Source: Octopus vulgaris (lineage: Eukaryota). Taken from it: a stretch of DNA of 64,000 nucleotides. Every line of letters starts with the position of its first letter. Positions within the stretch are counted from its first letter, which is position 1. The position numbers were made by a program, and so were the translations under genes. The DNA lies in contig OX597814.1 of NCBI GenBank assembly GCA_951406725.2, forward strand, positions 172,236,001 through 172,300,000, in the 5' to 3' direction. The notes under the pieces are model-generated. The model saw nothing but the letters and a program-made list of their open reading frames with translations, was not told where the DNA came from and searched no databases. Below, piece by piece: positions 728-55,825 of this stretch.

Positions 728-741
728 TTATTATATAGAAG

Positions 742-841
742 GAGCTTCTACAGGACTAGTACTGTTTCATTCAAGAGAAATCTTCAGGAAGCTTCTACAG
801 GACTAGTACTGTTTCATTCAAGAGAAATCTTCAGGAAGCTC
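742..841 (-). ncRNA. Two tandem type I hammerhead ribozymes (742-794, 789-841)
   Basis: Minus strand reads gagcttc CUGAAGA uuuc-ucuu-gaau GAAA cag-uacuaguc-cug UA gaagcuu, repeated at a 47-nt period. Confidence 0.75.
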
Positions 842-842
842 T

Positions 843-897
843 GGAGCTTCCTGAAGATTTCTCTTGAATGAAACAGTTCTAGTCCTGTAGAAGCTCC
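843..897 (+). ncRNA. Type I hammerhead ribozyme
   Basis: Stem I ggagcttc/gaagctcc, core CTGAAGA, stem II tttc/gaat (U.U first pair), GAAA, stem III cag/ctg, GUA cleavage triplet. Confidence 0.8.
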
Positions 898-977
898 TTC
901 TATATAATAAATTATTTTACTCTGCTATGTATTGAGTACCTTACTTACTGTGGTTAACCCCGAATCAACCCGGGACC

Positions 978-14903: not shown

Positions 14904-15414
14904 TGAAGCTATACATTAGCGTTGTATTTATTACGTTCGCTATTTTCCAGTAAATATCGATACTTCGTTGTATTATTTATGTACTTTTATGTATAATTTA
15001 CCTTCACGGGCTATTCTTTACTGGAAAGCAATACTCTAGTATTGCATTACTATTTTCATTGAAACTTCTTCAGTTCTCGCTCTGTTAACGCTTTGGCGTT
15101 CAGACGAGTGTACTGGCATAGATGGCAACATTTGAAATGTTGTTGAGGTATATGTGGCTGATGAAGATAAATCAATTATACGATTGGCATTCGTATTTTG
15201 AAAAATCCGAAACCGGTACTGCATTATCCTTATCTAGGTTTTTCATTTTTCAGATGTTCTTCCTAGAGGTAAGACAATTTTTCATGTTTGTTGCACATAC
15301 GCATCTTTACTAGTACATACGCAGTGAAGCTATACATTAGCGTCGTATTTATTACGTTCGCTATTTTCCAGTAAATATCGATACTTCGTTGTATCATTTA
15401 TTTACTTTTATATA
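14904..15414 (+). mobile_element. Retrozyme-like element, 421-nt unit, ~1.2 copies
   Basis: 14904-14994 recurs at 15325-15414. One HHR lies inside and a TA-rich run follows. Confidence 0.7.
15152..15224 (+). ncRNA. Type I hammerhead ribozyme
   Basis: atgtgg CTGATGA agat...atcc GAAA ccgg TA ctgcat. Stem I has two G.U pairs, the first stem II pair is A.C, and stem III is the palindrome ACCGGU. Confidence 0.7.
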
Positions 15415-46502: not shown

Positions 46503-46689
<187 letters not shown>

Positions 46690-46871
46690 ATTAGGGCTTA
46701 GTAAAATAAAATTACTTTGCCACATACTGAACTTAGTAGAAATAGCAGCCCAAAAAATTTTTTTTTAGCATTTCTACTACTTAAAGAAAATTTCTCTCAG
46801 ATAATGTTTACTCCAGACAGCTCACGAAGGTTTGGGGTAAATACAGAAAAATATCACAAGTACATAGATCG

Positions 46872-46934
46872 TTTGAGTACGTCAACGTTTCAAGATTAGC
46901 CAAATAAAATCAGCATTTCTTTCGTCAGCTCAAA
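46872..46934 (-). ncRNA. Canonical type I hammerhead ribozyme (left arm)
   Basis: Reverse complement of 47692-47754. Confidence 0.85.
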
Positions 46935-47691
46935 ATTTCTTAATTTGGATTTGGAAACACTAAAAGAAGGAACTTTACCTATCAGCGAACTTGTCGTTTC
47001 AGATGAACCACTCCAACTAAACAGTGTCAACAAATTCAAAATGCGCAGGCGTAAAATTCTGCACTCCCCATTCCACCCACGTGGTCTATCTAGCAAACAT
47101 TATATTTTAACCGCGAGAACCGAGGCAGTATGACCGAGAGAAATGAATTATAATATCAACAATTGAGGGTAAAATTAATTAATTAATCAATTTCACCAAG
47201 TGTTCAGTATGTAAAAGGACCATTTAAGGCGAATTCAAAATATTACATTATATAATTAGGGCTAAGTAAAATAAAATTACTTTGCCACATACTGAACTTA
47301 GTAGAAATAGCAGCCAAAAAAAATTTTTCTTAGCATTTCTACTACTTAAAGAAAATTTCTCTCAGATAAGCCCTAATTATATAATTTTGAATTCGCCTTA
47401 AATTATCCTTTTACATACTGAACACTTGGTGAAATTGATTAATTAATTAATTTTACCCTCAATTGTTGATATTATAATTAATTTCTCTCGGTCATACTGC
47501 CTCGGTTCTCGCGGTTAAAATATAATGTTTGCTAGATAGACCACGTGGGTGGAATGGGGAGTGCAGAATTTTACGCCTGCGCATTTTGAATTTGTTGACA
47601 CTGTTTAGTTGGAGTGGTTCATCTGAAACGACAAGTTCGCTGATAGGTAAAGTTCCTTCTTTTTAGTGTTTCCAAATCCAAATTAAGAAAT

Positions 47692-47754
47692 TTTGAGCTG
47701 ACGAAAGAAATGCTGATTTTATTTGGCTAATCTTGAAACGTTGACGTACTCAAA
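47692..47754 (+). ncRNA. Canonical type I hammerhead ribozyme (right arm)
   Basis: tttgag CTGACGA aaga...tctt GAAA cgt-tg-acg TA ctcaaa. Confidence 0.87.
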
Positions 47755-48034
47755 CGATCTATGTACTTGTGATATTTTTCTGTATTTACCCCCAAACCTT
47801 CGTGAGCTGTCTGGAGTAAACATTATTTGAGAGAAATTTTCTTTAAGTAGTAGAAATGCTAAGAAAAAATTTTTTTTGGCTGCTATTTCTACTAAGTTCA
47901 GTATGTGGCAAAGTAATTTTATTTTACTAAGCCCTAATTATATAATGTAATATTTTGAATTCGCCTTAAATGGTCCTTTTACATACTGAACACTTGGTGA
48001 AATTGATTAATTAATTAATTTTACCCTCAATTGT

Positions 48035-48173
<139 letters not shown>

Positions 48174-55345: not shown

Positions 55346-55392
<47 letters not shown>

Positions 55393-55397
<5 letters not shown>

Positions 55398-55752
55398 ATT
55401 AGGGCTAATTGCAACAAGTTGCTCAAAACCACATACCGAAAATATTAGAAATAGCAGCCAAATAGATCACTATTTCTACTACTAGTAAAAAAGTCTCCAG
55501 AAACAAACAGAATTTGTAACCCGTATATGGTAAAGAGAAAGAAGACAACGAAATCCCAGCCTATTGGATTAATTATAGACGAATCCGTTTCTGGATTAGA
55601 ACCGAAAGTCCATTTCCTTGTCAATATAATATTTCCTATAAATCTAGAAATGCTAGGAAGAAAAACTCACCCATTACACCAACTCGATCAGGCGACATCG
55701 AACGATATAACGGTCCGCTAGCATCTCTACATTTATATAGACAGGCAAATTC
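55393..55752 (-). mobile_element. HHR-bearing element in (TA)n, distant relative of the 46.7-kb element
   Basis: Shares ataattagggct, ccacatac, tagaaatagcagccaaa and atttctactact in the same order as 46687-46781. Confidence 0.72.
55572..55630 (-). ncRNA. Type I hammerhead ribozyme, U3-A8 core variant with a 5-nt insertion before stem II
   Basis: auuaua UUGACAA ggaaa ugga..ucca GAAA cg-gauu-cg UC uauaau. Confidence 0.68.

Positions 55753-55825
<73 letters not shown>

What the first reader, a model, noticed from the sequence alone, without database searches (positions are those of the whole stretch)
55393..55752. Related family keeps the hammerhead through compensatory core change (C3-G8 to U3-A8)
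Seen: this element shares collinear motifs with the 46.7-kb element, and its HHR lies in the equivalent position. All three stems differ in sequence yet still pair, and the core is UUGACAA versus CUGACGA. Inference: within-window covariation evidence that the fold is under selection. The GGAAA insertion before stem II is unusual.
Basis: partly seen in the sequence, partly recalled or inferred. Interest (0 to 1): 0.7.

Follow-up and report, generated by a model that had tools for sequence, protein, structure and literature searches.

The report
Hammerhead core swap in tandem retroelement
A short jumping repeat in this animal genome carries a predicted self-cutting RNA with an already published two-letter swap in its core; its relatives show that the RNA's helices are conserved, but half-swapped cores multiplied too, so the swap itself is weak proof of function.

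Summary
The element is real: a 5'-truncated 360-bp copy of a ~555-bp non-coding repeat between (TA)n runs, homologous end to end to the 46.7-kb family (z 8.6). Its minus strand holds a type I hammerhead fold, core UUGACAA, predicted cut after C at 55578. U3-A8 is the family state (98 of 100 listed copies have A8). Two parts of the reading fail. The 'GGAAA insertion' is a mis-registration: GGA/UCC is helix II; the family lost one A after the core, leaving an unopposed A before G12. And U3-A8 is weak evidence of selection: it is one event on the tree, 92 copies carry U3·G8, and position 8 flips about nine times. Better evidence is helix I covariation and a helix III insert that stays self-complementary (18 of 19 positions), which predicts cleavage as a dimer. 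Natural U3-A8 is published (Perreault 2011; Cervera 2014, in Penelope-like elements), and this scan noted it before on other DNA of this genome. Best reading: a non-autonomous Penelope-derived retrozyme with a probably slow, dimer-dependent ribozyme. Cleavage is not shown. Of modest interest: the genome records a natural series C3-G8, U3·G8, U3-A8, shortened core that can be assayed directly.

The parts
55393..55752 (-). 5'-truncated copy (about unit positions 196-566) of a ~555-bp non-coding repeat, family A; fixed 3' end at 55393, variable 5' break at 55752
55349..55394 (.). (TA)n run at the 3' end: likely target site
   Evidence: (TA)n next to the same end in most single copies
55753..55824 (.). 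(AT)n then (TG)n run at the 5' break
55625..55636 (-). helix I, 5' strand: extension GGA (55636-55634), loop AAU, AUUAUA (55630-55625)
55618..55624 (-). core U3-U4-G5-A6-C7-A8-A9 (U3 = 55624, A8 = 55619); one A shorter than sister subfamilies before helix II
55593..55617 (-). helix II: GGA/UCC, 3x3 internal loop AAU/UAA shared with the 46.7-kb family, distal hairpin GGAC/GUUC (GAAC/GUUC in other copies)
55592..55592 (-). unopposed A between helix II and G12
   Evidence: column pair 24/57 unpaired in 83 of 84 rows
55579..55591 (-). G12-A13-A14, then helix III A15.1...U16.1 (55588-55579), a 10-nt self-complementary segment (self-duplex -10.8 kcal/mol)
55577..55578 (-). predicted cleavage site, after C17 (55578) of GUC
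   Evidence: by analogy with known hammerheads, not shown
55566..55577 (-). helix I, 3' strand UAUAAU, loop UAA, extension UCC
55429..55478 (-). 3' motif and hairpin shared by the whole superfamily (3592 exact pattern matches in G000, 0 for the reversed control)
46686..48040 (.). family B insertion: one 565-bp unit, a partial second unit and an inverted copy; C3-G8 hammerheads at 46934-46872 (-) and from 47692 (+)

Best explanation
This is a truncated copy of a non-coding tandem repeat that inserts in (TA)n and likely moves with the enzymes of a Penelope-like retrotransposon; its RNA is predicted to fold into a type I hammerhead with a U3-A8 core that would cut slowly, and mainly when two units pair through their self-complementary helix III. 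Tandem units would be transcribed as one RNA, cut to ~555-nt monomers and probably closed to circles or used uncut as template; reverse transcription would start at the AT-rich unit end primed on (TA)n, giving a fixed 3' end, random 5' breaks and tandem or inverted copies. Selection keeps the helices and the catalytic purines; the 3-8 pair is under weak constraint in this lineage and moved C-G to U.G to U-A, after which one A of the resulting AAA run was lost, twice.
For: Shown: homology and register; tandem and inverted architecture, fixed ends, no ORF of its own; core U4-G5-A6-A9 and G12-A13-A14 intact in 44 of 44 copies picked only by the 3' motif that span the core (45 examined, 1 broken inside the core; 39 of the 44 belong to C3-type subfamilies); H17 never G in 84 rows; 96% of helix I cells pair and 5 of 6 pairs change on both sides; inside the U3 clade three helix I pairs switch between two Watson-Crick types (71 of 80 rows); helix III insert self-complementary at 18 of 19 variable positions in 15 subfamily variants (null mean 9.2), 12 of 13 in the U3 clade (null 6.5); monomer helix III is improbable (P 0.013; the core pairs with GUC instead) whereas the self-duplex is -10.8 kcal/mol; nearest sisters of family A are U3.G8, then full-length U3-A8. 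Known: palindromic helix III and dimer cleavage, low in vitro activity and U3-A8 in PLE hammerheads (PMC4209133); animal retrozymes derive from PLE pLTRs (10.64898/2026.07.22.740005); an intact Hydra-type, (TA)n-targeting PLE with near-identical copies is present in this genome.
Against: No cleavage data. 5' breaks are not enriched at the cut site (2 of 54 within 4 nt, about 1.5 expected), and 50 of 87 copies extend past it. U3.G8 and C3.A8 subfamilies amplified. [quoted passage not shown] The fold is not the minimum-energy structure and z-scores are unremarkable (-0.04 for the window copy). No Rfam match. No sequence link of family A to the one autonomous PLE family tested (0 of 30 loci). Palindromic inserts can also arise by template switching, without selection (my own knowledge).
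Confidence: 0.6

Rival explanations
1. Cleavage has become dispensable in the U3 lineage: the fold is kept as a handle for dimerisation, for the borrowed reverse transcriptase or for RNA stability, and the 3-8 pair simply drifts.
For: About 85 U3.G8 copies in amplified subfamilies, a C3.A8 subfamily, 8-9 flips at position 8, two losses of a core-adjacent A; no 5' ends at the cut site; low activity of such mutants in PMC9901934; a hammerhead-less derivative of family B multiplied, though as a passenger of a PLE.
Against: Catalytic purines and H17 stay unchanged at subfamily level (the U3 clade is thinly sampled without bias, 5 copies); Watson-Crick 3-8 states make up about 86% of 713 matches; the largest U3 expansion is U3-A8.
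Confidence: 0.25
2. One reading: U3-A8 is a fully compensatory swap and the ribozyme is as active as the C3-G8 form; U3.G8 subfamilies rode along by cleavage in mixed dimers.
For: U3-A8 is the state of nearly all family A copies and shows no listed change in laid contigs of organisms C, D and E (8 rows not shown); natural U3-A8 hammerheads are known and such pairs were reported active in vitro (PMC3088659).
Against: One independent contrast only; repeated G/A flips at 8; unopposed A before G12, a mispair class that Perreault et al. used to reject hits.
Confidence: 0.15

Closest known systems
PLE hammerheads, U3-A8 variant of Schistosoma mansoni Cercyon elements (Cervera and De la Pena 2014, PMC4209133; parts 1-2 of 4 of the text read: results, discussion, part of methods; supplements not seen)
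   Same: type I hammerhead in a Penelope-type repeat, U3-A8 core (about 1,300 hits there), palindromic helix III predicting dimers, copies on opposite strands close together
   Different: here helix III is 6-12 nt long, not minimal; helix II is broken by a 3x3 loop; family A lacks the extra nucleotide between 9 and 10.1 that they call conserved and has an unpaired A before G12; U3.G8 subfamilies are not mentioned in the text read
Non-LTR retrozymes of animals (Cervera and De la Pena 2020, PMC7229834, passages; Li et al. 2026, 10.64898/2026.07.22.740005, abstract, introduction, methods part and passages)
   Same: non-coding tandem units, each with a type I hammerhead; proposed non-autonomous derivatives of PLEs
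   Different: unit ~555-565 bp rather than ~300; frequent inverted, 5'-truncated copies and (TA)n targeting; non-canonical core
Natural U3-A8 hammerheads (Perreault et al. 2011, PMC3088659, section 8 and passages)
   Same: same covariation at 3 and 8; mismatch at the base of helix II also reported (U10.1-U11.1)
   Different: no insertion before G12 and no U3.G8 form in the section read; figures and supplements not seen
Hydra clade of Penelope-like elements (Craig et al. 2021, PMC8557442, section 11 and passages)
   Same: (TA)n targeting, hammerhead, tandem and inverted insertions; a Hydra-type ORF family is active in this genome
   Different: family A has no ORF and showed no sequence match to that family's loci

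Membership tests
Hammerhead ribozyme, type I | three helices around the core, helix I open | tested here: met
   90.5% of cells pair, slid controls 26-41%
Hammerhead ribozyme, type I | U4 G5 A6 A9 G12 A13 A14, A15.1-U16.1, H17 | tested here: met
   window copy; unbiased sample 44 of 44; H17 84 of 84, A15.1-U16.1 83 of 84
Hammerhead ribozyme, type I | C3-G8 pair of the consensus | tested here: not met
   U3-A8, a published Watson-Crick variant; relatives also U3.G8 and C3.A8
Hammerhead ribozyme, type I | helix II closes directly on A9 and G12 | tested here: not met
   unopposed A before G12 in family A; A.A, C.A or U.U mismatch in relatives
Hammerhead ribozyme, type I | match to an Rfam hammerhead model | tested here: not met
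   (the C3-G8 family B copy is missed as well)
Hammerhead ribozyme, type I | loop 1 - loop 2 tertiary contact | not tested
   3x3 loops at 6 bp in helix I and 3-4 bp in helix II are conserved and well placed, but no contact was tested
Hammerhead ribozyme, type I | self-cleavage after N17 | not testable with these tools
   no raw reads offered; genomic 5' breaks not enriched at the site
Non-LTR retrozyme | tandem units each with a type I hammerhead | tested here: met
   seven tandem units plus one inverted at G000:C2:84.29 Mb; the window copy itself is single
Non-LTR retrozyme | no protein coding | tested here: met
   no ORF belonging to the unit in loci L001-L170
Non-LTR retrozyme | circular monomer RNA | tested here: inconclusive
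   contigs of X1 and X3 (RNA only by guess, one study) close head to tail on the 559-nt unit; a tandem transcript or DNA gives the same
Non-autonomous Penelope-like element | fixed 3' end, 5' truncation, tandem and inverted copies, (TA)n target | tested here: met
Non-autonomous Penelope-like element | homology to the pLTR of an autonomous PLE | tested here: inconclusive
   one PLE family tested (30 loci): no match to family A; matches to family B are a nested passenger; other PLE families not tested

The most novel reading that the evidence does not exclude
The genome holds a living fossil series of a ribozyme crossing a fitness valley in its catalytic core: C3-G8, amplified U3.G8 wobble subfamilies, U3-A8 reached several times, then a core shortened by one A, twice, with an unpaired A before G12. 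All forms would be active as dimers because the 3x3 loops and the long dimer helix III buffer the core, extending the known hammerhead consensus.
Probability: 0.3. Interest if true: 0.55.

Novelty: new variant of a known kind. Interest (0 to 1): 0.32.

Why it matters
The headline variant is known, so as posed the finding is ordinary. What remains is a ready-made natural test set for an open question, whether hammerhead cleavage is needed for Penelope-like elements and retrozymes to spread (PMC8557442 calls the function unclear). Subfamilies with paired, wobble and mismatched 3-8 cores all left copies; measuring their rates would tell whether weak cleavage suffices or none is needed. Standard descriptors that demand CUGANGA and a closed helix II would miss these copies.

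Tried and rejected
Rejected: private CpG-type decay of one copy (the family carries U3-A8); GGAAA insertion; family B or A as the 3' end of the Hydra-type PLE (the match in 20 of 30 loci is a 200-bp hammerhead-less nested piece 330-490 nt behind the stop, and that PLE has its own hammerhead). Led nowhere: Rfam; minimum-energy folding; independent-pairs test of 3 versus 8, only 1 pair; 5' breaks at the cut site (87 of the 100 listed places examined, 13 lying in earlier loci not re-examined); loose U3-A8 pattern, noisy against its control (618 versus 352); Pfam scan of the PLE ORF gave no passing family. No RNA holder listed and no raw reads; contigs cannot show ends or strand. Papers not held: Lunse 2017, Przybilski 2007, Nelson 2008a/b, Martick 2006, so measured rates for U3-A8 and U3.G8 were not seen and these papers may already describe the variants. 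Searches with no hit: hammerhead with U3-G8/U3G8/C3U, G8A/compensatory, C11.1/G12/extra nucleotide; octopus with Penelope-like and hammerhead gave one paper.

Full report
What is there. Window 55393-55752 is a 360-bp element between (TA)n runs in a 2.8-Gb animal genome, G000; earlier notes of this scan call it an octopus, which fits my recall of its repeats and was not tested. The element (family A) has 1657 first-look candidates in G000, of which 40 were scored; the 46.7-kb element (family B) has 1771. Full units are 555-565 bp, lie in tandem and inverted arrangements, end at fixed points next to (TA)n and break at variable points on the other side. No ORF belongs to the unit. A and B align end to end (z 8.6 against 200 shuffles). 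A 3' motif shared by both has 3592 exact matches, so they are two of many subfamilies.

The hammerhead. On the minus strand: helix I AUUAUA/UAUAAU with a 3x3 loop and a GGA/UCC extension, core UUGACAA (55624-55618), helix II GGA/UCC, internal loop AAU/UAA, a distal hairpin, one A, GAA, helix III 55588-55579, C17 at 55578. Family B has the same layout with CUGACGA in 54 of 54 rows (overlapping loci repeat some copies, one row is a further family). U3 is in 35 of 35 and A8 in 34 of 35 rows of the best family A loci, A8 in 98 of 100 listed pattern matches. Sister subfamilies with UUGAYAA followed by A or C and then GGA have exactly the length of family B, which fixes the register: U3 and A8 are true substitutions, and family A has lost one A of the AAA run, leaving the A before G12 without a partner. 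The opposed position is a mismatch in 83 of 84 rows.

Is the fold under selection? On 84 distinct rows (of 94; rows with truncated 5' flanks and near-duplicates left out) 90.5% of cells pair, 10 of 18 pairs change on both sides, score 0.298 against 0.135 shuffled and at most 0.061 slid. The rows were found with a pattern that fixes most core letters and proximal helix II, so their invariance there is no evidence; copies picked only by the 3' motif keep the core in 44 of 44, though only 5 are of the U3 clade. Inside the U3 clade three helix I pairs switch between Watson-Crick types (71 of 80 rows; one extension pair has an unpaired state in 3 rows). Helix III varies from 6 to 12 nt yet its variable inner part is self-complementary at 18 of 19 positions in 15 variants seen at least twice, 12 of 13 in the U3 clade (variants are related, so the p-values overstate). 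As a monomer the window RNA is predicted to pair its core with GUC instead of forming helix III, while two copies can form a 10-bp helix III. This is the dimer design described for PLE hammerheads (PMC4209133).

Is U3-A8 compensatory evidence? Only weakly. Of the first 100 of 713 matches with positions 3 and 8 left free, I count 28 C3-G8, 59 U3-A8 (18 full length, 41 short), 11 U3.G8, 1 C3.A8, 1 A3.A8 (tallied by eye). Genome-wide there are 92 U3.G8 matches, about 85 in full-length subfamilies with their own helix II sequences, and 9 C3.A8, 4 of them one subfamily; these two patterns lack the first letter of the pattern, so the share of paired cores, about 86%, is approximate. On a tree of 113 of 172 records with core columns removed (family B thinned to 4, the tandem array to 1, 3 duplicates dropped) position 3 changes once, position 8 eight times, the short core twice, and there is one independent pair. 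A second tree of 63 rows rooted on C3-G8 gives 3 and 9 changes and places U3.G8 rows, then a full-length U3-A8 row, as successive sisters of family A; recombination between subfamilies may add to these counts. So unpaired and wobble cores also multiplied. Laboratory data seen are mixed: Perreault 2011 cites activity of covarying 3-8 pairs, Roberts 2023 found only G3:C8 rescued in their construct (PMC9901934, passages).

How it likely moves. Architecture and target match Penelope-like elements, above all the Hydra clade (PMC8557442). An intact ORF with the Hydra marks (RWR, DKT, CxCx5C, CxxC and CxH) has many near-identical copies here, but family A matched none of its 30 loci; it carries its own hammerhead, which is the one at window 735-900. 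The partner is therefore inferred, not identified. Of 87 copies, 50 extend past the cut site and 2 of 54 mapped 5' breaks lie within 4 nt of it, as chance predicts: the template was uncut or re-ligated RNA. Contigs of two runs guessed to be RNA close head to tail on the unit, which a circle, a tandem transcript or DNA would all give. The family is also held by runs labelled organisms C, D and E, with no listed change at 3 or 8.

Known and new. I did not find amplified U3.G8 subfamilies or an unpaired A before G12 in my searches, but five primary papers and all supplements were unavailable.

Noticed in passing
window 735-900: Three hammerhead copies (one +, two -) of another family; the same sequence lies upstream of an intact ~713-aa Hydra-type Penelope-like ORF (L213), so this is a pLTR remnant of an autonomous family.
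   Followed up: partly
L208-L237, 330-490 nt behind the ORF stop: 20 of 30 copies of that PLE carry a 200-bp hammerhead-less inverted derivative of family B as a passenger inside 3' microsatellites.
   Followed up: partly
window 15152-15224 (+) and about 26662-26610 (-): Two more type I hammerhead-like motifs with canonical C3-G8 and an A.C mismatch at the base of helix II; a mismatch there seems common in this genome's hammerheads.
   Followed up: no
window 55566-55636: The same motif GGA-AAU...UAA-UCC forms both the helix I extension and helix II of family A; possible swapped pairing or a repeated tertiary module.
   Followed up: no
window about 47150-47175 and the pLTR end in L213: Family B and the Hydra-type pLTR share a short AT-rich stretch just before their (AT)n junctions, seen by eye; may be a recognition signal or chance.
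   Followed up: no
G000:C2:84288156-84292340 (L072): Seven tandem units plus one inverted unit of a young family A subfamily; its variant dominates contigs of runs X1 and X3.
   Followed up: partly
L238-L241: Four dispersed copies of a subfamily with a C3.A8 mismatch core and intact helices.
   Followed up: partly
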